A stretch of 64,000 bases of DNA from Candidatus Daviesbacteria bacterium (GCA_016187025.1 JACPKM010000004.1:99637-163636), one strand, 5' to 3'. Shown: positions 2,467-61,107, numbered from the stretch's first letter. Numbers and translations are program-made. Notes: a model not told the origin generated them from the sequence alone.

Positions 2467-3537
2467 ATGTTAAATAAAACAATTACAAATCAGCCAAAAT
2501 CAATTATTGAGGTGCAAATCACTGTACCTTGGTCAGATTTAGAGCCAAAGTGGAATGAAACATTGCAAAGGTTAGCTGAAGATGTAGAAATGCCTGGTTT
2601 TAGAAAAGGCAATGTTCCTTTGAATATGGTTGAAGCAAATTTGGCCGGTAAGCTCCAGGATGAGGTTTTAAAGGTCGCTATGCCTCAATTTTTAATAGAA
2701 GCTTTAAAAGGAACAGATATAGTTCCAATTGATTATCCAAAATATGACCTAGTTTCTTTTGTAAAGGGTCAGCCGTTGCAATATAAAACCACAGTGACAA
2801 ATAGGCCTCATGTCAGCATCGGCAATTATAAAACTATCAAAGCTACAAGACCAACACCAAAACCAGTTACAGATGAAGAGGTGCAAAAAGTAGTTGATGA
2901 TTTATACAACAGATGGAAAAATAAGCCTGGAATAGGTAATCCAGCGGCTGGTCCTTCTGGGTCAATAGATTTCCAAAAGCCACAAAACCAACCTGACTCA
3001 ACTAAATCTTCAACAAGCCCTGATGATGAGTTTGCCAAAGCCATGGGTGCTACCAGTCTTGCCGATCTAAAAGACAAAATCAGGAAAGACTTGCAAGATA
3101 ACATTGGTTACAATAACGAGCTTGACTATGAGGAAGCAATCCTGCAAGAAGTGGAGAAAATGACAGCTGTTGAGTTACCAGAAGTTTTAATTCAGGATGA
3201 GCTAAACCGGATGCTAGTGTCACTGCAAAGAAGAGTAGCAGATATGGGACTACTTCTGGATGATTACTTAAGAGGTCAGGGTAAAACTTTAGAACAGATT
3301 AAAAACGAGTGGAGACAGCAAGCTGAGAAAAATGTACGTATGGAACTTGGACTGGCAGAAATTGCAAGATTAGAAAATGTAAATATTTCAGACCAAGAGC
3401 TTCAGGCAGAAGTTGATAAAATTCAGGATGCCCGGGTTAAAAAACAATTTGACTCTCAAGAACCAAGACTGCATTTAAAACATGCCTTAAGACAAACTAA
3501 AACCTTAGACCTTCTAAAAAAGCTTGTAACTGGGTAA
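2467..3537 (+). CDS. tig: Trigger factor, apparently reduced and lacking an FKBP PPIase domain
   Basis: The N-terminal ribosome-binding domain carries the PGFRKGNVP signature and a C-terminal chaperone arm is present. The middle is a Pro/Gly/Ser-rich linker where the PPIase domain would be. Confidence 0.7.
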   Translation: MLNKTITNQPKSIIEVQITVPWSDLEPKWNETLQRLAEDVEMPGFRKGNVPLNMVEANLAGKLQDEVLKVAMPQFLIEALKGTDIVPIDYPKYDLVSFVKGQPLQYKTTVTNRPHVSIGNYKTIKATRPTPKPVTDEEVQKVVDDLYNRWKNKPGIGNPAAGPSGSIDFQKPQNQPDSTKSSTSPDDEFAKAMGATSLADLKDKIRKDLQDNIGYNNELDYEEAILQEVEKMTAVELPEVLIQDELNRMLVSLQRRVADMGLLLDDYLRGQGKTLEQIKNEWRQQAEKNVRMELGLAEIARLENVNISDQELQAEVDKIQDARVKKQFDSQEPRLHLKHALRQTKTLDLLKKLVTG

Positions 3538-3559
3538 CTCAGGCAGTATAATTATCCGC

Positions 3560-3967
3560 GTGGAAGACTGTATTTTCTGCAAAATCATCATAGGTGATAT
3601 TCCTTCTAACCGAGTGCATGAAGATGAGGATGTAGTTGCTTTTTTGGAATTACACCCCTCAGCACCTGGACATGTAATGGTGATTCATAGACGACACGGT
3701 AAAACAGTTTTAGATTACTCGGAAAAAGAACTAGGAAAGATTATGACTGGTGTCCAGAAAGTGGCTGAAAAAGTTGAAAAAGGGCTAAAGTGTAATTCAA
3801 TTACGATTGGTATCAATCACAATGAACGCAGAGGTGTACCACATTTACATATCCACCTGGTTCCTAGGTGGGAAGGTGACAGAGGTGGTATCATACAGAC
3901 AGTTGTAAACAATCCTCCTCAGGATTCCCCTGAGGTCATAGCAGAGAAAATACGTAAAGCAACCTAA
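3560..3967 (+). CDS. HIT family hydrolase
   Basis: N-terminal CIFCKI and the histidine triad HLHIHLVPR. Confidence 0.85.
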   Translation: MEDCIFCKIIIGDIPSNRVHEDEDVVAFLELHPSAPGHVMVIHRRHGKTVLDYSEKELGKIMTGVQKVAEKVEKGLKCNSITIGINHNERRGVPHLHIHLVPRWEGDRGGIIQTVVNNPPQDSPEVIAEKIRKAT

Positions 3968-5084: not shown

Positions 5085-6704
5085 ATGCAGGATACTAAGT
5101 CAGCCTTCTATTTAAAATATCGTCCTCAAAGCTTAAATGATTTAATTGGCCAGGAAACAGTTAAAAAGATTTTGCAATCAGCTTTTTCTCTAAATAGACT
5201 TTCTCACGCATATATATTTGTTGGACCAAGGGGAACAGGTAAAACATCAACTGCCCGGATTTTGGCAAAGATGGTGAACTGTGAAAAGGGCAAAGCCCTG
5301 CCTGCCGGCAGGCAGGGGGAAAGCGGAAAAAGTGAATTACCTTGCAACAGCTGTTCGGCATGCCTTTCTATTACTGATGGCACTAATTTGGACCTTATAG
5401 AAATTGACGCAGCATCAAACAGAGGAATTGATGATATTAGATCACTGCGGGAAAGAATCAATTTAGCGCCTACAAATGCCAAGAAAAAAGTGTACATCAT
5501 AGATGAGGTGCACATGCTTACAACCGAGGCGTTTAACGCCCTTTTGAAGACTTTAGAAGAGCCTCCTGCCCATGCTTTGTTTATTTTGGCAACTACCGAA
5601 GGCTCAAAAGTTCCCCAAACAATTCTTTCCCGCTGCATAAGATTGGATTTTAAACTAGCCAGCCAGCAGGAGCTTGTACAAGTTTTAAGTATTATCACAA
5701 AAGAAGAAAAAATAGAAATAGATGAAGATAGTATTAAAATTGTTGCTCAAAAAGCTGATGGGAGTTTCCGGGATGGGGTTAAGCTTTTGGATCAGGTATC
5801 ATCATGGAGTGGAAAAATTACAGCCGTAAAGACTCAAGAGAGCCTGCGTTCATCCAAGTTTGAACAAACAACTAAAGTTTTAGAGCATCTTTCCCTCAAC
5901 AGCACAAAAGAGGCTTTGCTTGAGATAACAAACCAGACAAAAGAAGGCATAGATACAAAAGGATCTATCACCTCTTTAATGGAGGCCATGCGGCATTTTG
6001 TCTTTATCAAAAGTGGTTTGGTAAAAGAGCTGGTAGAACCATTCTGGGGTGAGGAAAAAACTAAAGTTTTAATATCTTTATCTGAAAAATTTGATACAGG
6101 AGCGCTAATAAAAAATTTAGATTTACTCCAAACTGCACTGGAAAAGCTTAAAACTTCCTCAATTGAGGCATTACCGCTTGAACTGGCAGTTGTCCAAATG
6201 TGCAGATATGAACCAGAATCAGCAGTTATGAATCGAGAATCAGAGGATTTAGAAATACTTCCTGTGACAAGTGAAATAAATATCCCTGTTTCCGAGACAA
6301 AGTTGGTAATGGATAAATCTGCTAAAGAGCCTAAATTGGATGGTCAAGATATGTCAGATTTATCCAAGGTAAAAGAAAAATGGAACTTTGTACTAGAAAC
6401 TGTCAGACAAAATAATTTCTCTTTGGAAGCACTTTTGCGCTCTGTAGAGCTGGGAGACTGCAGTGGTTCAACTGTTGTTATCAAAGTACCCTATTCTTTT
6501 CATCAGAGAATATTAGATGCTCCCAAAAACAGAGAACTGGTGGAAGCAATCATTTCTGATATTTTAGGACGGAGTATTAAAATTACAACCTCAGTTGGGA
6601 TAAGACGGCCTAGAAAAGAGGATATTGCCAATATTGAGGTGGCAGCAGATGATGAGGTAATAAGAATTGCCTCAGAAATTTTCAGTTCAGAAACAGTCAA
6701 TTAA
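5085..6704 (+). CDS. dnaX: DNA polymerase III subunit gamma/tau
   Basis: AAA+ P-loop GPRGTGKTS and zinc module NCEKG...CNSCSAC. Carries an extra ~12-aa loop encoded by a GC-rich palindrome (see findings). Confidence 0.88.
   Translation: MQDTKSAFYLKYRPQSLNDLIGQETVKKILQSAFSLNRLSHAYIFVGPRGTGKTSTARILAKMVNCEKGKALPAGRQGESGKSELPCNSCSACLSITDGTNLDLIEIDAASNRGIDDIRSLRERINLAPTNAKKKVYIIDEVHMLTTEAFNALLKTLEEPPAHALFILATTEGSKVPQTILSRCIRLDFKLASQQELVQVLSIITKEEKIEIDEDSIKIVAQKADGSFRDGVKLLDQVSSWSGKITAVKTQESLRSSKFEQTTKVLEHLSLNSTKEALLEITNQTKEGIDTKGSITSLMEAMRHFVFIKSGLVKELVEPFWGEEKTKVLISLSEKFDTGALIKNLDLLQTALEKLKTSSIEALPLELAVVQMCRYEPESAVMNRESEDLEILPVTSEINIPVSETKLVMDKSAKEPKLDGQDMSDLSKVKEKWNFVLETVRQNNFSLEALLRSVELGDCSGSTVVIKVPYSFHQRILDAPKNRELVEAIISDILGRSIKITTSVGIRRPRKEDIANIEVAADDEVIRIASEIFSSETVN
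5296..5317. repeat. 22-bp perfect GC-rich palindrome CCCTGCCTGCCGGCAGGCAGGG, in-frame inside dnaX
   Basis: Read directly from the sequence. The same 20-bp core occurs inside prmC at 50116-50135. It is highly atypical GC content for this AT-rich window. Confidence 0.9.
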
Positions 6705-26463: not shown

Positions 26464-26501
26464 AAAAGTCCCTATTATGCTGAGCACTAGTCGAAGTATA
26501 A
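26464..26501 (+). repeat. 38-bp conserved motif, copy 1 (AAAAGTCCCTATTATGCTGAGCACTAGTCGAAGTATAA)
   Basis: Matches 33313-33350 at 35 of 38 positions. It lies immediately upstream of the ATG at 26514. Confidence 0.8.
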
Positions 26502-33312: not shown

Positions 33313-33350
33313 AAAAGTCCCTATTGTACTAAGCACTAGTCGAAGTATAA
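33313..33350 (+). repeat. 38-bp conserved motif, copy 2
   Basis: Matches 26464-26501. It lies between the convergent 3' ends of two genes. Confidence 0.8.
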
Positions 33351-36286: not shown

Positions 36287-36290
36287 TTTT

Positions 36291-36368
36291 ATAAAATGGG
36301 AGGCGTTGCATATAATACGCAGTCATATGTTCGTTTCTCCCCAGTGATAAATGCATTTTATCATAAGC
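36291..36368 (+). repeat. ~80-nt structured repeat, copy A (GGGAGGCG...hairpin...CGTTTCTCCC, then TGATAAAT...ATTTTATCA)
   Basis: About 85% identical to 41679-41757. It contains a GGGAG/CTCCC outer stem and an internal hairpin. Confidence 0.8.
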
Positions 36369-36900
36369 TTCAGCAATTACTGCTTCAAAGGATGGGGAGA
36401 ATTATGAAGCATTAGTATTTATTGATGGTTTACAAAAAAGTGAGGTTAAGAAAGTAGCCACTGGTTTGAGAAGAATAGGAGTACATACAGAAAAAGTCCG
36501 TGGACTTAGAGATGAAAGTGATGAGTTTATAAGGTTAATGGATGCAATTGCAGGACTAATTAGAGAAAATGAGGAAGGCATACAATATGCAAAAAAACTT
36601 TACAAACTAGGTTTAGAGAATAAAACGCTTATTACTGTTTAAAACCAAAGAAAAACCCACATAGCTTTCGCCAGAGGTGGGAACAACCTAGTTCTTTCGA
36701 ACACCCGCCAATACTGGTAGTATTCGGTTGCGATTTAGCTGAATTTTACCATATTTCATTTATAACGCAAATTTATGTGTGAGTGAGCTGACCACATAGG
36801 TAACATCTGATGCAAAATATTGTAGCAAGGGATGAGTTTGGAGGAATTCTACATTCAAAGCCTCCTCGATTTACAATTTAATTGGTATACTGTCAGTATT

Positions 36901-37401
36901 ATGGTTATCTTAGGTATTGATCCTGGAATTGGTAAGGTAGGATGGGGAGTAATTAAAGATGAATCTGGTAAACAGCAGGCTTTGGAATATGGTTGTTTTG
37001 AGACGCCGTCAAAGATGGATCTAGATGAGCGCCTGGCCAAGATTTATGACTTTACACTTAAGCTCATTGAAAAATTCACCCCGGAGGTATTAGCTATTGA
37101 ACAGTTATATTTCGCTGCTAATTCCAAAACCGCCTTAGTAGTTGGACAAGCCAGAGGAGTCATACTTCTGGCAGCTTCAAAGTCTAATCTTCCCACTGCC
37201 TCATATACCCCTCTTCAGGTAAAACAGGCTTTAACAGGTTATGGACAAGCTTCTAAAAATCAGGTTCAAAGCATGGTGGGGGTAGTCCTACATCTGCCTA
37301 AGAAGGTAACTCAGGATGATGCAGCAGATGCTTTAGCTATTGCCATAACTCATGCTTTCTCATATAAACTACGTAAGATCTCTGAATATAAATTAAAATA
37401 A
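36901..37401 (+). CDS. ruvC: Holliday junction resolvase RuvC
   Basis: MVILGIDPGIGKVGWGVI N-terminus and catalytic acidic residues. Confidence 0.88.
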   Translation: MVILGIDPGIGKVGWGVIKDESGKQQALEYGCFETPSKMDLDERLAKIYDFTLKLIEKFTPEVLAIEQLYFAANSKTALVVGQARGVILLAASKSNLPTASYTPLQVKQALTGYGQASKNQVQSMVGVVLHLPKKVTQDDAADALAIAITHAFSYKLRKISEYKLK

Positions 37402-37402
37402 A

Positions 37403-37984
37403 ATGATTGGATTTTTATCTGGCAGTATACATTCAAAATCTAATGAGCAAATTATTCTACTTACCGGTGGAGTAGGCTATTTAGTAACTATTCCTCCAAA
37501 TTATCTAAGTCTACTTAAAGTATCTGTACCTGCTGAACTGTTTATCTATACTCATGTCAGGGAGGATACTCTTGACTTATATGGATTCCTTACTGCTGAT
37601 GAACTGAAACTGTTTAAACTGGTATTAACTGTCTCCGGAGTAGGCCCTAAAACCGCACTACTAGTGATTGATAAAGGAGTAGGAAAGGTTGAAGGAGCTA
37701 TTAAAAATGCTGATACTGACTTTTTTACAACAGTCCCCAGACTGGGGCATAAAAACGCCCAAAAGATTATCATTGAGCTTAAAAACAAACTGGGAGGGTT
37801 AAAAGAGCTGGATCTAACTTCAGAGAGTGAAGAAAGTACGGAGGCTATTGAGGCTTTACGTAACTTAGGATATACCAGACAGGAAGCAACACAATCAATT
37901 CAAGCCGTACCGGCATCTGAGAAAACCCTTGAACAAAAAATAAGTTATGCGTTGCGTCAATTAGGTAAGGCTAAATCAAAATAG
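37403..37984 (+). CDS. ruvA: Holliday junction branch migration protein RuvA
   Basis: MIGFLSGS N-terminus and HhH SGVGPKTAL. Confidence 0.88.
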   Translation: MIGFLSGSIHSKSNEQIILLTGGVGYLVTIPPNYLSLLKVSVPAELFIYTHVREDTLDLYGFLTADELKLFKLVLTVSGVGPKTALLVIDKGVGKVEGAIKNADTDFFTTVPRLGHKNAQKIIIELKNKLGGLKELDLTSESEESTEAIEALRNLGYTRQEATQSIQAVPASEKTLEQKISYALRQLGKAKSK

Positions 37985-37990
37985 TTGTGA

Positions 37991-38263
37991 TTATTTAAAC
38001 TGAATTTGAAGAGTGGTATTAAGGGCTGTTGCTAAACGTTTCAGAAAAGAAATAGATGGTGTAGTGTTTGCTCCTTCGAGACGTGAAATCGCTGATTGTC
38101 CGGTATGCAATTTATCTGCAAGTTGCTTTTGAGTAAGACCATTTTCGATACGGGCACGGATTACTGTTTTGGCAATCTCGAACTCAACCCGGGTTTCATC
38201 ATAGAGTTTTTTAAACTCAGGATTTTTTAGTAATTTTTGTTTGTGTTTTTCAAAATCATCCAT
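37991..38263 (-). CDS. XRE-family HTH protein (HigA-like antitoxin)
   Basis: HTH LTQKQLADKLHTGQSAISRLE, located immediately downstream of the toxin-like gene. Confidence 0.7.
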   Translation of the reverse strand: MDDFEKHKQKLLKNPEFKKLYDETRVEFEIAKTVIRARIENGLTQKQLADKLHTGQSAISRLEGANTTPSISFLKRLATALNTTLQIQFK

Positions 38264-38301
38264 GGTATAATATTATCACAAAATTGTAATATTGCAAGGT
38301 A

Positions 38302-38646
38302 TCAATTTTGATCTTTTGACTGATACTCAACCAATCTTTTTAGCGCAATATTTATTTCCTTTTTATCGGTTTTCTGCTTTTTCTTTTGAAATCCATAAAG
38401 GAAGAGAAAAACTTTACCTGTATGGGTAACATAGAAAATACGGATACTGTCCTGTCCTACAATCCGGAGTTCCCATAAAGTTGTTCCTACTACTTTCTTT
38501 ACGTGGGGCAGACTCAAACTAATTCCATATTCTTTAAGTAAACCAATTGTATCGAAAACCTTAATTTGCGCTTTTACCTCTAATTCGTCAATAAATTCCT
38601 CAACAGGAGAGTTTTTACTTGTGGTTTTGTAATATTCAATTTTCCA
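38302..38646 (-). pseudogene. HigB/RelE-like (Gp49-type) toxin gene, apparently frameshifted near the start
   Basis: Translation gives W-KIEYY...PVEEFIDEL...GTTLWELRIVGQDSIRIFY...GFQKKKQKTDKKEI, a Gp49/HigB-like pattern. The only upstream ATG is out of frame by +1 (ATGGAAAATTGA); the first in-frame start is a TTG at 38517. Confidence 0.5.
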
Positions 38647-38708
38647 TTAATCAATATTTAGTTTAAAAAAAAGACTATAATTAAGAAGGTAAAAATGAAT
38701 AAGTAGGA

Positions 38709-39221
38709 GTGTTAGTGAAATTATATAGATTCAGCCCTATTAAAACTAAAGATGAGTTGTTTGAAGCTATTAAGCACATTCATCTTGAGTCATACAAGCT
38801 TTGCAAACAATCATTTGGTCACTATCTACCAAATGCTGGAAATATGGGAGTATTTTGTCACTATAATGACGAATTTGAGTTTCTCATAAACCTTGGAAAA
38901 GAATTAACTGACCTCTCTGATAGTGTTTATCAAAAGTATTTCCGGTTACATAAGCCAATTATTATTTCACCTCAAGGTGATATTCCGGAAACTACCTATA
39001 CTTACCTATATATAAGAAAACCGGATCCATATCGCTCTCACGCTGGTGATGCGGATTTTTATTTGGAACTGGAAAAATATGCCGAGCTTAAGCAAGCTAT
39101 GTTAAATGGCAAGAAAATAACAGGCGCCAGAGTATTAGAGAGAGCTGACCCGGATATGATTGAGCTATATGATCCTGATATAGATGTTTTAGCCTATGTG
39201 AGTACAAAAAAAATGACGTAA
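38709..39221 (+). CDS. Hypothetical protein (170 aa) inserted between ruvA and ruvB
   Basis: ORF with a GTG start after AGGAG; no recognisable motif. Confidence 0.45.
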   Translation: MLVKLYRFSPIKTKDELFEAIKHIHLESYKLCKQSFGHYLPNAGNMGVFCHYNDEFEFLINLGKELTDLSDSVYQKYFRLHKPIIISPQGDIPETTYTYLYIRKPDPYRSHAGDADFYLELEKYAELKQAMLNGKKITGARVLERADPDMIELYDPDIDVLAYVSTKKMT

Positions 39222-39249
39222 ACAGTTAGAATATCAAGAATTTTAAAAT

Positions 39250-40311
39250 ATGAATAAAGATACTAAACATATTATTAATGAACCTCAGGTTTTGGAGACT
39301 GCAGTAGAGACTGTTGAGGAGGAGGAGAAATTATTTAACTCTCTTAGAGCCAGCGATTGGGATGAGTTTATCGGTCAGGAGAAGATTAAAGAGTCGCTTC
39401 ATATTGCTATCACTGCTGCTAAAAAAAGAGGGGAGGCAATGGAGCATACCCTGCTTTATGGCCCTCCCGGATTGGGTAAAACAACATTGGCTCATTTAAT
39501 AGCTAAAGGAATGGGCAGTAATATCAGAGTCACCTCCGGTCCGGCCATTGAAAGAGCCGGAGATCTGGCTGCTATTTTAACCAGCCTGGAGCCTCATGAT
39601 ATTTTATTTATTGATGAAATCCACAGATTAAGTAAGGTAGTGGAAGAAACCCTTTATCCTGCGATGGAAGATTTTGCTTTGGATATGGTAATTGGTAAAG
39701 GCCCATCAGCCAGAACTTTAAGATTGGAACTACCACAGATTACTATTATCGGAGCAACTACCAGAATTGGCATGGTTTCCTCGCCTTTAAGGGATCGTTT
39801 CGGAGTAATTCATAGATTATCTTTCTATACCCCGGAAGAGCTTTCTCAAATTATTAAGCGGGCTGCTAAAAAACTCAAGGTTCCGATAGACCAGGAAGAA
39901 GTTACTCAGCTTTCTAAAAGAGCCCGCGGTACACCAAGAATTGCCTTAAAACTTCTCAAAAGAGTGAGAGATGTGACAGAAGTACACGGACAAGGAAAAG
40001 TTACCAAAGAGCTTCTTAGCCAGACCCTGGATTTACTTGAAGTTGACCCATTAGGACTGGATGATTCAGACCGAAGATTACTCCTAACTATTATTGATAA
40101 ATTTAACGGCGGACCGGTTGGAATAGAAACTCTGGCAGCCACTATCTCTGAGGATATTGGTACCATTGAAGAAGTCATTGAACCATATCTTATGCAGGTA
40201 GGCTTTTTGAAACGAACTTCCAGAGGAAGAGTAGTCACTGAGTCAGCTTATCTACACTTAGGTAAACCCGCACCTTCATTAACAGAACAGAAATCGTTAT
40301 TTGAAAAATAA
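39250..40311 (+). CDS. ruvB: Holliday junction ATP-dependent DNA helicase RuvB
   Basis: [14 protein letters not shown] Walker A and the RuvB sensor and winged-helix regions. Confidence 0.92.
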
Positions 40312-40401
40312 ATGAGTGACCCAGCAACTGTAGTATATAAGAATAGTATGATCACAAGACAAATAACATGCTAACAAACAAGAGGAAGCACTAATTGTCT
40401 A

Positions 40402-40430
40402 TTGACAACGGCTAGTTCATAGAGTATTGT
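40402..40430 (+). promoter_or_regulatory. Candidate promoter TTGACA-17nt-TATTGT
   Basis: A -35/-10-like pair upstream of the 40457 gene. Confidence 0.25.
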
Positions 40431-40456
40431 TAATACAATGCTATCAACAAAGGGAC

Positions 40457-40852
40457 ATGCAAGTTAATGCTATGAAATTTGAGCCATTTCAAGGTAAACA
40501 TAAAAGATTCAGCCGTAATTCGATAAGCATTACAATAGTTTGCGGTATTGGTTTTAACTCTGGTTTTTATTTCAGAAATAAAATTGAAAATTTTGATTAC
40601 GTGCTTTTATTTTTCGACAAAGAACAACAAGCAATTGGGTTCCAATTTCTAAAAGACGGAAAAGTTCCGGGAGTATTAAAAATAAATCATGAGCCAAGAG
40701 GTAATTCAGGATCTACCTCGGCATCAGCTTTTTTCAAAGCTTATGATATTGATGCTAAAACTTCTAAGGGTAGGTATGAACCAAAGGAACACGTCGATCA
40801 AAAATTAGGCAAGATATTCTATATTTCCTTAAAAGAAAAAATTAAAGAGTGA
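40457..40852 (+). CDS. Hypothetical protein; first gene of a three-gene nuclease operon
   Basis: ORF with the start placed at an ATG with an AAGGGA SD. The ORF-track start is a TTG at 40427. Confidence 0.4.
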   Translation: MQVNAMKFEPFQGKHKRFSRNSISITIVCGIGFNSGFYFRNKIENFDYVLLFFDKEQQAIGFQFLKDGKVPGVLKINHEPRGNSGSTSASAFFKAYDIDAKTSKGRYEPKEHVDQKLGKIFYISLKEKIKE

Positions 40853-41124
40853 AGACTAGCTATTATCATATAGATTATATTAATCAGCTACCTACATTTT
40901 CTGGCATTTATTGGTTATTTGAATCAAGCAACGGAATATTAAATCTTGTTTATCTTGGTAAAAGCCGAAATATACGACAGCGATTAAGAGATCATAGTCA
41001 ATCAAAATCACATAGATTTGATTTTTTTACTTATGAATTTTACCCAGAAAGAAAATTGAGAAAGAAATGTTATCAGATTATAAACAAAGATTCGAACATT
41101 TACCTAGATACAATAAACAATTAG
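40849..41124 (+). CDS. Small GIY-YIG nuclease domain protein
   Basis: SGIYWLFE...LVYLGKSRNIRQRLRDH (GIY...YLG...R...H). The GTG start overlaps the upstream stop (GTGA). Confidence 0.65.
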   Translation: MKTSYYHIDYINQLPTFSGIYWLFESSNGILNLVYLGKSRNIRQRLRDHSQSKSHRFDFFTYEFYPERKLRKKCYQIINKDSNIYLDTINN

Positions 41125-41137
41125 GTTAATTCTACTT

Positions 41138-41674
41138 ATGGCAAAAAAAGAGAAGAGATCAAAAACAATGAAAATTTATGCTTTTATTGATAGTCAAAAT
41201 TTAAATTTAGGGACAAGCAAAGATATTTTTCATGGAAGGAAACTAATTTATAAGGGCTGGAAACTAGATTTTAAAAAATTTAGAAAATATTTATCAGATA
41301 AATTCCGTGTAGACAAGGCGTTTCTGTGTATTGGATATATAAAACAGAATGAGAAATTATATAAGCACCTCAAATCTTTTGGATATGAACTTGTATTTAA
41401 GCCTACAGTGAAAGATAATCAGGGTAAATCAAAAGGCAATGTTGATGCAGAATTAGTTTTGCACGCAGCAGCAATACAATTTTCTGAATATGATAGAGCA
41501 GTAATTGTATCAGGAGATGGTGATTTTTACTGCCTGTATGAATTCTTAGAAAAGAACAAAAAGTTATTTAAAATCATAATCCCAAATAGGAAATCAGAAT
41601 CTTCCTTACTCAAACAATTCCAGGATTACAAGATATTTTTGATTAGGGATAAGGATAAAGTTGAAAGAAAATGA
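41138..41674 (+). CDS. NYN/LabA-like (PIN-fold) predicted RNase
   Basis: IYAFIDSQNL...GNVDAELVLHA...VIVSGDGDF are the acidic motifs of PF01936. Confidence 0.7.
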   Translation: MAKKEKRSKTMKIYAFIDSQNLNLGTSKDIFHGRKLIYKGWKLDFKKFRKYLSDKFRVDKAFLCIGYIKQNEKLYKHLKSFGYELVFKPTVKDNQGKSKGNVDAELVLHAAAIQFSEYDRAVIVSGDGDFYCLYEFLEKNKKLFKIIIPNRKSESSLLKQFQDYKIFLIRDKDKVERK

Positions 41675-41678
41675 GCAA

Positions 41679-41757
41679 ATAAAATGGGAGGCGTAGCAAT
41701 ATGACACGTAGTCATATGGTCGTTTCTCCCTAGTGATAAATCTATTTTAACATAACA
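41679..41757 (+). repeat. ~80-nt structured repeat, copy B
   Basis: Matches 36291-36368. Its inner hairpin is ATATGAC-ACGTA-GTCATAT. It ends 37 nt upstream of the ychF start. Confidence 0.8.
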
Positions 41758-41794
41758 AGGGGTAAAAATTCAATATCATGAATATAAAGAAAGG

Positions 41795-42883
41795 TTGGGT
41801 TTTGTTCTGAAAGTGGGAATAGTAGGTCTTCCGAATGTGGGGAAAAGCACACTTTTTAATGCTTTGTTGAAAAAAAGGGTGGCTTTATCCGCTAATTATC
41901 CTTTTGCCACGATTGAGCCAAATGTGGGGGTGGTGGTTGTTCCTGATGACAGGTTAAACAAACTGGCTGAGCTGGTTAAGGAAGAAGAAAAGATGGATTT
42001 TTTGCCCCCTTTGGTCCCCGCTGTTGTAGAGTTTTTAGATATTGCGGGTTTGGTAAAAGGCGCTTCAACCGGTGCCGGTTTAGGGAACCAATTTTTATCA
42101 CATATTAGAGAAGTAGATGCAATTGTCCACGTGATTAGAGATTTTGAAGATGTTGTGGTGATTAGGGAAGGTAGTGTGAATCCTGAAGAAGATAAGTTAA
42201 CCATAGAAACAGAATTAGGCTTGGCTGATTTGCAGACTATAGAAAAAGGTCAAAGGTCAAAGTTCAAAGTTCAAAATGAAAGTTCAAAGTTCAAAAATTC
42301 TGCAATAGAAAAAATTAGTGTGGCTTTAAACAGTGGACAAATGGCAAATGAAGCAGATCTAACGGATGAGGAAAAAGAGGCGGTTAAGGAATTACACCTA
42401 CTTACTTTCAAACCAATTTTATATGTTTATAATGTTTCTGAGCAGGGTTACAATGAATCGCTGGAGCGATCAGATGTAACCGAGGATAGCTTGGTAATTA
42501 GTGCAAAACTTGAAGAAGAACTGGCAGATTTTTCGGAAGAGGAGAGAAAGAATTATTTAAAAGAGTTGGGGATTGAGGAAACAGGGTTAGAAAGGTTGAT
42601 TAAAAAAGCTTATGCGTTTTTAGGTCTAATTTCGTTCTTAACTGTCGGAAAAAAGGAAGTTAGAGCCTGGACCATTAAAAAAGAGACCAAAGCTCCGCAA
42701 GCCGCAGGGGTAATCCATACTGATTTTGAGAAAAAGTTTATCAGAGCTGAGGTTATAGAATATGAAAAGCTAGTTGACGCAGGATCTCGTGCAGCAGCCA
42801 AGCAGAAAGGTTGGGTGAGGACTGAGGGTAAGGATTATGAGGTAAAAGATGGTGATGTTATTGAGTTTTTGGTTTCTGCGTAG
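41795..42883 (+). CDS. ychF: Ribosome-binding ATPase YchF (Obg-like)
   Basis: GIVGLPNVGKST and a C-terminal TGS domain; TTG start. It contains a heptamer tandem repeat at 42246-42298. Confidence 0.88.
   Translation: MGFVLKVGIVGLPNVGKSTLFNALLKKRVALSANYPFATIEPNVGVVVVPDDRLNKLAELVKEEEKMDFLPPLVPAVVEFLDIAGLVKGASTGAGLGNQFLSHIREVDAIVHVIRDFEDVVVIREGSVNPEEDKLTIETELGLADLQTIEKGQRSKFKVQNESSKFKNSAIEKISVALNSGQMANEADLTDEEKEAVKELHLLTFKPILYVYNVSEQGYNESLERSDVTEDSLVISAKLEEELADFSEEERKNYLKELGIEETGLERLIKKAYAFLGLISFLTVGKKEVRAWTIKKETKAPQAAGVIHTDFEKKFIRAEVIEYEKLVDAGSRAAAKQKGWVRTEGKDYEVKDGDVIEFLVSA
42246..42298 (+). repeat. Tandem heptamer repeat (AAAGKTC)x~7 inside ychF
   Basis: AAAGGTC AAAGGTC AAAGTTC AAAGTTC AAAATGA AAGTTC AAAGTTC, encoding KGQRSKFKVQNESSKFK. 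Confidence 0.7.
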
Positions 42884-61023: not shown

Positions 61024-61107
61024 TGCCGAGAGAGGGAGTCGAACCCTCACGGGCGTAAAGCCCAGTAGTTTTTGAGACTACCCTGTATACCATTCCAGCA
61101 CCTCGGC
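61024..61107 (-). tRNA. tRNA-Leu (anticodon CAA), class II with a long variable arm; CCA not encoded
   Basis: Manual fold of the reverse complement gives acceptor GCCGAGG/CCTCGGC, an anticodon stem GTAGT/ACTAC with loop CTCAAAA, and a long extra arm GGGCTTTACGCCC. Confidence 0.75.

What the first reader, a model, noticed from the sequence alone, without database searches (positions are those of the whole stretch)
36291..41757. Two copies of an ~80-nt structured repeat bracket the ruvCAB region and its inserted genes
Copies at 36291-36368 and 41679-41757 are ~85% identical and in the same orientation. Each has a GGGAG...CTCCC outer stem enclosing a hairpin (copy B: ATATGAC-ACGTA-GTCATAT), followed by a TGATAAAT...ATTTTATCA segment. 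Between them, the normally contiguous ruvC-ruvA-ruvB is interrupted by a HigBA-like pair and an unknown gene, and is followed by a GIY-YIG/NYN operon. The repeats could be a small RNA family, att-like recombination sites, or MITE remnants marking a hotspot for cargo insertion.
Basis: seen in the sequence. Interest (0 to 1): 0.6.

Follow-up and report, generated by a model that had tools for sequence, protein, structure and literature searches.

The report
Small RNA gene paired with NYN nuclease
The two ~80-nt repeats are two copies of an apparently undescribed ~57-nt small RNA gene, read from the opposite strand, that sits tail-to-tail against an NYN nuclease gene in many candidate-phyla-radiation (CPR) bacteria; this gives a first handle on what these uncharacterised nucleases do.

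Summary
Two direct copies (36289-36366 and 41677-41755) are 85-88% identical, and chance expects none. They are not MITEs or att sites.

Each copy is a compact small-RNA gene on the minus strand:
- a start at an invariant AUCAC
- a two-tier hairpin
- a U-tract ending at the stop codon of the upstream plus-strand gene

The element was found in 31 reference genomes of Microgenomates and other CPR lineages, usually once per locus. It lies on the minus strand directly after the NYN nuclease gene (Pfam PF01936) in 76 of 77 metagenomic NYN loci that have room for it.

- **Structure:** 12 of 15 base pairs show compensatory changes.
- **Strand:** G·U versus A·C counts are 24 to 1 in favour of the minus strand.
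- **Known families:** no Rfam family matches.

Copy B is an intact NYN+RNA module next to ychF. Copy A belongs to a different subtype. It is an orphan whose NYN gene has been deleted, and it has two private substitutions.

The region is a real cargo hot spot, but the break point lies in ychF codons 6-7, not in the repeat.

Function is inferred: the RNA is most likely an antitoxin-like partner of NYN.

The parts
41680..41737 (-). Small RNA copy B (~57 nt): 5' AUCACUA, hairpin 41730->41686 (GGGAG...CUCCC around AUAUGAC-UACGU-GUCAUAU), then AUUUUAUUU tail ending 6 nt from the NYN stop codon (41672-41674)
   Evidence: Alignments A2 and A4, covariation counts, covariance-model hit of 101 bits
41744..41773 (-). 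Promoter of copy B: TTGAAT (41773-41768), 18-nt spacer, TG-extended TAAAAT (41749-41744); predicted start at A 41737
   Evidence: Promoter scan. The same -35/-10/AUCAC layout occurs in 85 of 110 homologous loci, against 2.4 expected in shuffles and 0 on the other strand
41138..41674 (+). NYN (PF01936, LabA-like) nuclease gene, convergent partner of copy B; probable start at 41168 (MKIYAFIDSQNL...). The acidic residues in the conserved AFIDSQN, GNVDAE and SGDGD motifs are invariant in the alignment
   Evidence: Pfam E=1.2e-14; alignment A3; PDB 2QIP E=3.6e-10
36293..36348 (-). Small RNA copy A (orphan, subtype 2): hairpin 36341->36298 and U-tract 36296-36293. It has two private substitutions: A->G just 5' of the outer stem, and G->A that breaks the loop-closing C-G pair
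   Evidence: Covariance-model hit of 82 bits with the broken pair marked; the CA cell; nearest relatives L009/L010
36355..36388 (-). Promoter region of copy A: TG-extended TAAAAT (36360-36355). The only -35-like hexamer is TTGAAG, 17 nt from an alternative -10, TATGAT (36388-36360), so the canonical -35 position is lost
   Evidence: copy A fails the full promoter pattern
36367..36400 (+). Decayed remnant of the junction unit 'U' (ychF-like start plus leader-peptide ORF) that precedes cargo genes in relatives
   Evidence: Local alignment to the L010 unit
36400..36642 (+). C-terminal fragment of a DUF3800 gene (pseudogene). Full-length relatives are about 190 aa
   Evidence: PF12686 for P0128
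36643..36800 (+). Conserved 3' untranslated region of the DUF3800 cassette, with two hairpins; nearly identical in L001 and L002
36808..36878 (+). 3' part of the leader-peptide ORF (MQNIVARDEFGGILHSKPPRFTI*), directly before the true ruvC start (36901)
   Evidence: tblastn E=7e-6 to 3e-5 against L003/L001/P0134
36901..40311 (+). ruvC (36901-37401), ruvA (37403-37984) and ruvB (39250-40311), interrupted by higA/higB-like genes (37991-38517, minus strand) and an unknown 170-aa gene (38709-39221)
   Evidence: Pfam; contiguous ruvCAB in L005/L007
40427..41124 (+). Unknown 141-aa gene plus a short GIY-YIG gene, upstream of NYN. This cargo was not found next to NYN in any other locus
41778..42883 (+). 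Short upstream ORF (uORF, 41778-41810) overlapping the TTG start of ychF (41795-42883), transcribed divergently from small RNA copy B

Best explanation
Each repeat is a gene for a ~57-nt structured small RNA transcribed from the minus strand.

**What the sequences show**
- A sigma-70 promoter (TTGnnn, 16-18 nt, TG-n-TAnnnT) fires 6-7 nt upstream of an invariant 5' AUCAC(U/G)A.
- The RNA folds into a 5-bp outer stem, conserved internal loops, an 8-bp covarying inner stem and an apical loop ending in GU.
- It ends in a U-tract that abuts the stop codon of a convergent NYN (PF01936) nuclease gene.
- NYN and the RNA form a two-gene module that is inherited together, and apparently exchanged, among CPR bacteria.

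**In this window**
- Copy B is an intact module (NYN + RNA) beside ychF.
- Copy A is the resident module of this Daviesbacteria lineage. Its NYN gene and about 700 nt were deleted, leaving an orphan RNA gene that has begun to drift.

**How it works (inferred, not shown)**
- Most likely (about 0.4), the RNA is the dedicated partner of the NYN nuclease. It binds the protein and restrains or directs it, like an RNA antitoxin.
- Less likely (about 0.2), it acts purely as a cis-antisense RNA against NYN transcripts that read through the hairpin.
For: **Distribution**
- An exact-pattern scan of one genome per species found 31 loci, one per genome, in Davies-, Woese-, Roizman-, Levy-, Shapiro- and Blackburnbacteria, CPR3 and others.

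**Structure**
- In the 32-sequence alignment, 98.3% of cells pair. There are 44 double-change cells against 11.3 in shuffles. Slid controls pair at 56% or less.
- In the 58-sequence NYN-ascertained alignment, 12 of 15 pairs carry compensatory changes. The outer stem covaries too: GGGAG/CUCCC, GAGAG/CUCUC, GGGGG/CCCCC.

**Strand**
- In the first alignment, G·U versus A·C counts are 15 to 4.
- In the second they are 24 to 1, leaving out one bulge-adjacent pair.
- The U-tract is on the minus strand only.
- The -35/-10/AUCAC pattern occurs in 85 of 110 loci, against 2.4 in shuffles and 0 on the other strand. It is found at both window copies.

**Linkage to NYN**
- In 24 of 33 RNA-ascertained copies (31 scan loci plus the two window copies), an ORF of more than 160 aa with the NYN C-terminus ends 0-46 nt before the element. 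tblastn shows that L012 also has an intact NYN.
- Of 77 NYN-ascertained loci with room downstream, 75 have the RNA by covariance model and/or by a motif-plus-fold test, and 1 more by eye.
- The single exception, L049, has a truncated RNA and an in-frame stop in NYN.
- Orphan RNAs next to a deleted or decayed NYN gene occur repeatedly: window copy A, L013, L016, L027, L031, L039.

**Mobility**
- NYN is 86-88% identical between lineages whose YchF is only 50-65% identical.
- The module occurs on two IMG/VR contigs.

**History of copy A**
- L010 has the ortholog of the 261-aa gene (73%), followed by a junction unit, NYN and the RNA.
Against: - There are no expression data, so the transcript, its ends and its strand are all inferred.
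- Folding of single sequences is slightly more stable on the plus strand (z = -2.4 versus -1.6 to -2.0).
- Nothing here tests RNA-protein binding or NYN toxicity.
- No conserved complementarity to the NYN translation start was visible.
- The module could be a housekeeping ribonucleoprotein rather than antitoxin-like.
- High NYN conservation could reflect constraint rather than transfer.
- The first locus set was chosen by requiring 22 invariant bases, which inflates the apparent sequence conservation. The NYN-ascertained set corrects for this.
Confidence: 0.72

Rival explanations
1. The element acts on the plus strand as a 3'-UTR structure or terminator of the NYN mRNA. The small 'promoter' would then belong to something else.
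For: - The element starts 0-10 nt after the NYN stop codon in most loci.
- The plus strand folds slightly better in single-sequence predictions.
- NYN transcripts probably do run through it, because no plus-strand terminator is seen.
Against: - No U-tract follows the hairpin on the plus strand.
- Covarying pairs show 24 G·U against 1 A·C when read on the minus strand, and these would be mismatches on the plus strand.
- The conserved TG-extended -10 and -35 boxes point into the hairpin on the minus strand.
- The element persists where NYN is deleted: window copy A, L013, L016, L027, L031.
Confidence: 0.1
2. The RNA is real but works only as a cis-encoded antisense RNA, like type I antitoxins. 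It would pair with the 3' end of read-through NYN mRNA and trigger its decay, with no specific protein contact.
For: - The arrangement is convergent and abutting.
- There is no plus-strand terminator.
- 3'-overlapping convergent antitoxin RNAs are known in Bacillus type I systems (own knowledge; reviews listed).
Against: - The invariant single-stranded 5' AUCAC, the loop-terminal GU and the internal-loop sequences are kept across NYN proteins only about 50% identical. A perfectly complementary antisense pair does not need this.
- Toxins of known type I systems are mostly small membrane peptides, not nucleases.
Confidence: 0.2
3. The repeats are DNA-level sites: att-like recombination sites, integron attC-like hairpins or MITE remnants that bound an inserted segment.
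For: - The two copies are direct repeats that bracket variable cargo.
- The neighbourhood is a hot spot.
- A few other loci carry a second copy: L012, L083, and weakly L039.
Against: - The element is normally present once per locus.
- No terminal inverted repeats or target duplications were seen.
- Cassette junctions in relatives lie in ychF codons 6-7, about 100 nt from the element.
- The module occurs in many contexts without ychF.
- Copies A and B are different subtypes.
- The G·U asymmetry argues for RNA.
Confidence: 0.04
4. The repeat is protein-coding: the 5' end of a small ORF (MGGVANRHAVYWSFLPSDK...), as called in one metagenome (P0136).
For: In L008 an ORF runs from the ATG inside the element through the downstream leader peptide, 92 aa in all.
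Against: - Copy B has an in-frame TGA in that frame, and copy A has a frameshift.
- The changes are base-pair compensatory, not synonymous.
- That ATG is the complement of the invariant CAU at the foot of the hairpin.
Confidence: 0.02

Closest known systems
Type III toxin-antitoxin systems (ToxIN, CptIN, TenpIN)
   Same: A structured small RNA is genetically locked to an endoribonuclease gene. The RNA gene survives when the nuclease is lost, and in the one locus where the RNA is truncated the nuclease is also inactivated. The module is found on mobile or viral DNA and among other toxin-antitoxin and defence-like genes.
   Different: The nuclease here has a PIN-like NYN fold, not the ToxN/AbiQ fold. 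The RNA is a single unit, not a tandem repeat array processed by the toxin. It is convergent and downstream with its own promoter, not upstream in the same operon. Toxicity and binding are untested.
Type I toxin-antitoxin pairs with 3'-overlapping convergent antisense RNAs (e.g. bsrG/SR4, txpA/RatA; own knowledge)
   Same: A short RNA with its own strong promoter and terminator is transcribed convergently toward the 3' end of the partner gene.
   Different: Known toxins are small hydrophobic peptides. Here the partner is a 170-aa nuclease, and the RNA lies entirely outside the coding region with strongly conserved unpaired nucleotides.
Bacterial LabA-like NYN proteins (PF01936, COG1432; PDB 2QIP)
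   Same: The partner protein matches PF01936 (E=1.2e-14) and 2QIP (E=3.6e-10). The acidic residues in its conserved motifs are invariant in the alignment.
   Different: These proteins are described as functionally unstudied, and are linked to tRNA/rRNA processing only through gene neighbourhood (PMC5499597). I found no report of an associated RNA. This clade lacks the OST-HTH RNA-binding domain often fused to such proteins.
Intrinsic (Rho-independent) terminators
   Same: On the minus strand there is a stem-loop followed by a U-tract.
   Different: A dedicated promoter sits about 7 nt upstream of the transcript start, so the hairpin is the transcript itself rather than the end of a gene. The loops and internal loops are conserved in sequence across phylum-level distances.
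Integron attC sites and gene cassettes
   Same: The neighbourhood carries variable, mostly single-gene cargo separated by a recurring junction unit.
   Different: The recurring junction is a ychF-like promoter and start plus a conserved leader-peptide ORF, not this hairpin. No integrase was identified.

Membership tests
Any Rfam 15 family | Match to a curated covariance model at or near its gathering score | tested here: not met
   The gathering scan of the window found only one tRNA. E-value scans of copy A, copy B, a CPR3 homologue and ten diverged loci gave only chance-level hits, all far below gathering scores.
Independent small RNA gene | Own promoter correctly spaced from a conserved 5' end | tested here: met
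   A TG-extended -10 lies 6-7 nt from the invariant AUCA. The full pattern occurs in 85 of 110 loci against 2.4 in shuffles. Both window copies were detected.
Independent small RNA gene | Conserved secondary structure supported by compensatory changes | tested here: met
   12 of 15 pairs have double changes, 94-98% of cells pair, and slid controls pair at 56% or less.
Independent small RNA gene | A discrete transcript is detected | not testable with these tools
   No transcriptome data were available.
MITE / REP-like dispersed repeat | Many copies per genome, terminal inverted repeats, target-site duplication | tested here: not met
   There are 2 copies in 64 kb and one per 8-kb locus in 31 genomes. 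The element is always at the same position relative to NYN. The whole-genome copy number for this organism could not be checked.
att / attC recombination site | Lies exactly at the boundaries of the variable DNA | tested here: not met
   Junctions fall after GTnGGGA in ychF codons 6-7, about 100 nt from the element. The module is also found away from any such junction.
att / attC recombination site | Cognate integrase nearby | tested here: inconclusive
   No integrase was found among the genes at 33-45 kb. The Pfam summary of 57 other window ORFs lists only the top 25 of 96 families, none of them a recombinase.
Type III toxin-antitoxin | ToxN/AbiQ-fold toxin; tandem-repeat RNA upstream in the same operon | tested here: not met
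   The partner has an NYN fold. The RNA is a single convergent copy. The module may work like such a system but is not a member of the known families.
Type III toxin-antitoxin | The toxin is growth-inhibitory and is neutralised by binding its RNA | not testable with these tools
   This needs expression and binding experiments.
NYN / LabA-like nuclease (PF01936) for the partner gene | Pfam match above the cut-off and conserved acidic residues | tested here: met
   55.5 bits against a cut-off of 24.2. D8, D93, E95, D117 and D119 are invariant in A3.

The most novel reading that the evidence does not exclude
NYN plus this RNA is a new class of RNA-controlled nuclease module. It would pair a PIN-like NYN toxin or effector with a convergent, structured RNA antidote or guide. 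It is spread by horizontal transfer through CPR bacteria and some of their viruses. In Daviesbacteria it travels as one cassette of a previously undescribed cassette array that inserts site-specifically into the first codons of ychF. Each cassette is headed by a copy of the ychF promoter and start plus a conserved leader peptide.
Probability: 0.25. Interest if true: 0.85.

Novelty: new variant of a known kind. Interest (0 to 1): 0.65.

Why it matters
- **A new RNA family.** It adds a well-supported RNA family (about 110 examples with strong covariation) from CPR bacteria. It is absent from Rfam 15, and I found no report of it in the literature I could search.
- **A handle on NYN proteins.** Bacterial PF01936 NYN proteins number in the thousands and have no tested function (PMC5499597). 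Here they get a concrete, testable partner, and binding, cleavage and toxicity-rescue experiments become obvious.
- **Corrected annotation.** Spurious or chimeric ORFs (P0121, P0136) are called across the RNA gene and the junction units.
- **A recombination hot spot.** It exposes a hot spot at the 5' end of ychF that shuffles toxin-antitoxin and defence-like cargo next to core genes (ruvCAB, ychF) in very small genomes.

Tried and rejected
- **Coding reading.** I first suspected the repeat was the 5' end of a decayed gene. A DUF3800 fragment follows copy A, and P0121 and P0136 contain translations of similar sequence. I rejected this because of the stop and frameshift in the two copies and the compensatory changes.
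- **L001 homology.** I thought the 5' region of L001 was a diverged copy of the element. It is in fact a ychF-like start.
- **Link to ychF.** I tested whether the RNA is tied to ychF. Only 14 of 70 informative loci have ychF adjacent, so the link is to NYN.
- **Pairing with the NYN start.** I looked for complementarity between the RNA's 5' end and the NYN translation start and saw no conserved site.
- **Known RNA shapes.** K-turn, tRNA-like, SRP-like and hammerhead-like readings of the sequence were considered by eye and dropped. Rfam gave nothing.
- **Folding energy.** Single-sequence z-scores did not discriminate between the strands.
- **Exact-protein look-ups.** Look-ups for RuvB and the 58-aa ORF found no contig, so the source genome itself could not be fetched.
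- **Literature.** Searches on NYN, CPR small RNAs, and DUF3800 in Patescibacteria found nothing relevant.


Full report
**1. The observation**

The two copies are present at the stated coordinates, in the same orientation. The repeat finder splits them into families D3 and D4 because of one 1-nt indel. MAFFT shows the similarity running from about 36289 to 36366 and from 41677 to 41755, and stopping there.

A 31-nt core pattern occurs exactly twice in the window, with none in 100 shuffles. The outer GGGAG/CTCCC stem and the inner hairpin are predicted on both strands.

The genes between the copies are as described:
- ruvC; the true start is 36901, not the 36832 given by the ORF list
- ruvA
- an HTH_3 plus Gp49 pair on the minus strand (HigBA-like)
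- an unknown 170-aa gene
- ruvB
- an unknown 141-aa gene
- a short GIY-YIG gene
- an NYN gene

YchF homologues place the organism in Candidatus Daviesbacteria, in the CPR/Microgenomates group.

**2. A false lead worth recording**

Copy A is followed by a C-terminal fragment of a DUF3800 gene. Some metagenomic gene calls (P0121, P0136) translate straight through similar sequence, so I first suspected a decayed coding region.

Three things rule that out:
- In that frame copy B carries a TGA, and copy A a frameshift.
- The differences between copy B and its ortholog in L004 are three adjacent base-pair flips in the inner stem: ATATGAC/GTCATAT against AATAGAC/GTCTATT.
- The 'ATG' is simply the complement of the invariant CAU at the foot of the hairpin.

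**3. Distribution**

I scanned one genome per bacterial and archaeal species with ATGGGAGGCGT-N20-30-TCGTTTCTCCC. This returned 31 loci, each in a different genome. They come from Davies-, Woese-, Roizman-, Levy-, Shapiro- and Blackburnbacteria, CPR3, 'Parcubacteria' and several evidently mislabelled MAGs.

In 24 of 33 copies (the 31 scan loci plus the two window copies), an ORF of more than 160 aa with the NYN C-terminus ends 0-46 nt before the element. tblastn shows that L012 also has an intact NYN. The remaining copies have NYN remnants, no NYN, or a contig end.

**4. Strand and gene anatomy**

Read on the minus strand of the window, all copies share the same layout:
- a -35 box (TTGACA, TTGAAT or TTGATT)
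- a 16-18 nt spacer
- a TG-extended -10 box, with T, A and the final T at 90% or more
- 6-7 nt to an invariant AUCA
- the hairpin
- CCCAUUUU(U)AUU

The full -35/-10/AUCAC pattern is present in 85 of 110 loci. Shuffles give 2.4 and the opposite strand gives 0. The simple promoter scan also picks it up at both window copies: TTGAAT-18-TAAAAT with TG at 41773-41744, and TTGAAG-17-TATGAT at 36388-36360.

Its palindromic look in copy A is not conserved.

G·U pairs settle the strand:
- In the first alignment there are 15 G·U against 4 A·C, and the A·C cells are bulge-alignment artefacts.
- In the second there are 24 against 1, once one bulge-adjacent pair is set aside.

Single-sequence folding energies do not help and slightly favour the plus strand.

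**5. Structure**

The RNA has these parts:
- a 5-bp outer stem
- an AAA-by-C internal loop
- a 2-bp CG/CG step
- a second internal loop
- an 8-bp inner stem, with an optional bulge
- a 5-nt loop, U-N-N-G-U

| Alignment | Cells paired | Compensatory change | Controls |
|---|---|---|---|
| MAFFT, 32 sequences | 98.3% | 44 double-change cells | 11.3 double-change cells in shuffles; slid partners pair at 56% or less |
| NYN-ascertained, 58 sequences | 94% | 12 of 15 pairs | Slid partners pair at 51% or less |

In the second alignment the outer stem also covaries: GGGAG/CUCCC, GAGAG/CUCUC, GGGGG/CCCCC, and GGGGG/CUCCC with a G·U pair.

No Rfam 15 family matches any form of the RNA.

**6. Linkage to NYN, tested from the protein side**

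A metagenome scan with an alignment of the NYN proteins returned 80 loci with 52-88% identity.
- The covariance model finds the RNA on the minus strand, abutting the NYN stop, in 42 of the 44 loci with NYN at 62% identity or more. One exception is a contig end.
- It also gives weaker hits at the same position in 15 of the 36 more distant loci.
- The remaining distant loci carry a visibly homologous but diverged RNA: TTGACA-17-TAnAAT, then AUCACGAUGAGAGG...CCUCUC-UUUUU with an inner CC-UAA-GG...CC-GAA-GG module.
- A motif-plus-fold test finds the gene in 68 of the 77 loci with room downstream.

Combined with the covariance model, 75 of 77 loci have the RNA, and one more has it by eye. The single exception, L049, has a truncated RNA and also an in-frame stop inside the NYN catalytic motif, DS*NL.

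Across the whole family, four features are conserved: the 5' AUCAC(G/U)A, the outer stem, the 3' internal-loop sequence (UACGCC or UAAUGCC) and the loop-terminal GU.

**7. The two window copies are not a recent duplication**

Over the RNA region:
- copy A is 95% identical to L009, L010, L026 and L027 (subtype GAAC...UGCAACG)
- copy B is 98% identical to L021, L032 and L035 (subtype GACC...UUGCUACG)
- copies A and B share 88%

L010, another Daviesbacteria genome, has this order: the ortholog of the window's 261-aa gene (73%), a junction unit, NYN, then the RNA. In the window, the stop of the 261-aa gene is followed 6 nt later by the tail of copy A. So about 700 nt, including NYN, have been deleted.

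Copy A has two private changes, one of which breaks the loop-closing C-G pair. It has also lost the canonical -35 box. It is an orphan, possibly still expressed from its extended -10.

Copy B has an intact NYN. The acidic residues in NYN's conserved motifs are invariant in the alignment.

**8. Is the module mobile?**

- NYN is 86-88% identical between this genome and L023, L032 and L035, whose YchF is only 50-65% identical. Fellow Daviesbacteria L010 and L022 carry the other NYN subtype at 78-81%.
- The module sits next to ychF in only 14 of 70 informative loci.
- It occurs on two IMG/VR contigs.
- Its neighbours repeatedly include HigBA pairs, the 170-aa gene, DUF3800 and, in L071, ruvAB.

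This pattern fits an accessory, exchangeable module better than a housekeeping one. Strong constraint on NYN cannot be excluded.

**9. The hot spot**

Relatives show that the cargo is variable:
- L005 and L007 have ruvC-ruvA-ruvB contiguous, then a 257-aa gene and ychF. They have no HigBA, GIY-YIG or NYN there.
- L004 has NYN, the RNA and ychF.
- L040, the closest relative on the copy B side, has a complete DUF3800 cassette inserted after CTGAAAGTAGGGATAG in ychF.

Across loci the break point is always after GTnGGGA, in YchF codons 6-7. Each cargo is headed by a recurring unit: a TATAAT promoter, a ychF-like start, and about 150 nt encoding a conserved peptide (...PFELIINLPKPRYERNIVxRDxxGRIIHSKPP). 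That peptide is under protein-level selection, shown by AGA/CGT arginine codon swaps.

The window holds remnants of this unit at 36367-36400 and 36808-36878.

**10. Mechanism**

*Shown by the sequences:*
- the gene anatomy
- the structure
- the strand
- the near-obligate linkage to NYN
- persistence of the RNA after loss of NYN
- joint decay in the one locus where the RNA is broken

*Inferred:* the RNA is the dedicated partner of the nuclease.
- I favour direct recognition by NYN (about 0.4). Unpaired nucleotides stay invariant across NYN proteins only about 50% identical, which a perfectly complementary antisense pair would not need.
- Pure antisense control of read-through NYN mRNA is the main alternative (about 0.2).
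- A housekeeping ribonucleoprotein role remains possible.

PF01936 proteins are described as experimentally unstudied (PMC5499597). A CRISPR-associated NYN protein has since been shown to be a Mn-dependent single-stranded-RNA nuclease (bioRxiv 10.1101/2024.04.08.588522). This makes an RNA-restrained RNase plausible.

**11. Verdict**

- The element is a new small-RNA family, absent from Rfam 15 and from the literature I could search. It forms a two-gene module with an NYN nuclease.
- It resembles RNA-antitoxin systems in logic but fails the membership tests for the known type I and type III families.

Noticed in passing
window 36367-36400 and 36808-36878; L008 240-445; L010 5700-5860 and 6480-6640; L020 79-243 and 7799-7951; L034, L040, L003, L001: A recurring junction unit precedes many different cargo genes: DUF3800, NYN+RNA, a three-gene set with an AAA_5 gene, and others. 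The unit consists of a TATAAT promoter, a ychF-like start (ATG..TTAAAAGTrGGGA) and an ORF for a conserved peptide (...PFELIINLPKPRYERNIVxRDxxGRIIHSKPP*). The break point is always after GTnGGGA in ychF codons 6-7. This looks like a cassette array targeted to the 5' end of ychF. No recombinase was identified.
   Followed up: partly
L010 ~6487-6500; L008 ~257-270 (ATG AGT TTA AAA GTA): The leader-peptide frame is -1 relative to the ychF ATG. Some loci have their own in-frame ATG (ATGGGATATGAG). Others have none but carry the classical slippery heptamer U_UUA_AAA in the ychF frame, so a programmed -1 frameshift is conceivable.
   Followed up: no
window 36400-36800; L001 844-1200; L002 919-1154: A DUF3800 C-terminal fragment, 95-96% identical at protein level to fragments fused to unrelated N-termini in other samples (P0121, P0123). 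It is followed by a highly conserved 3' untranslated region with two hairpins (CCCACrTAGCTTTCGCCAGAGGTGGG and CCAATACTGGTAGTATTCGG). No Rfam DUF3800 motif matched.
   Followed up: partly
window 26464-26501 and 33313-33350: A second repeat in the window: 38 nt, 92% identical, intergenic (AAAAGTCCCTATTrTrCTrAGCACTAGTCGAAGTATAA). It reads like a promoter (TTGTAC-16-TATAAG) with a shared operator-like core. It is unrelated to the finding.
   Followed up: partly
window 37991-39221; L068 3320-3827; L003 156-398; L016, L042, L044, L048: The HigBA-like pair and the unknown 170-aa gene that split ruvA from ruvB recur next to NYN+RNA modules or in other contexts in other genomes. They are therefore mobile cargo rather than lineage-specific genes.
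   Followed up: partly
L012 3775-3864 and 5301-5390; L083 1601-1694 and 1735-1827; L039 2371-2459: A few other genomes also carry a second, diverged copy of the RNA gene near the first. In L083 the two copies are in tandem, about 40 nt apart. Duplicate RNA genes are thus not unique to this window.
   Followed up: no
L120 ~3470-3560; L121 ~3465-3560 (IMG/VR contigs of 21 and 35 kb): Two predicted viral contigs carry the NYN gene (about 50% identity) with the same convergent RNA gene. More distant phage NYN homologues (23-29%) lack it.
   Followed up: partly
L049 216-716 and 720-800: This is the only NYN locus with a truncated RNA gene. It also has an in-frame stop in the NYN catalytic motif (DS*NL), and a tRNA gene lies just beyond.
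   Followed up: yes
window 41778-41810: An 11-codon upstream ORF (uORF, MNIKKGWVLF*) overlaps the TTG start of ychF in another frame. The same arrangement is seen in L004, L022, L024 and L026. Other lineages start ychF with ATG TCN AGT TTA AAA.
   Followed up: no
window 36832-36900: The mechanical ORF for ruvC starts 69 nt too early, because it runs through the tail of the leader-peptide remnant. Homologues start at MVILGIDPG (36901).
   Followed up: yes
diverged RNA type, e.g. L088, L096, L101, L118: The inner module CC-UAA-GG...CC-GAA-GG matches the UAA/GAN internal-loop motif known from large structured RNAs (own knowledge). This hints at a defined tertiary fold.
   Followed up: no
window 61024-61107 (-): An 84-nt tRNA with a long variable arm is the only Rfam hit in the window.
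   Followed up: no
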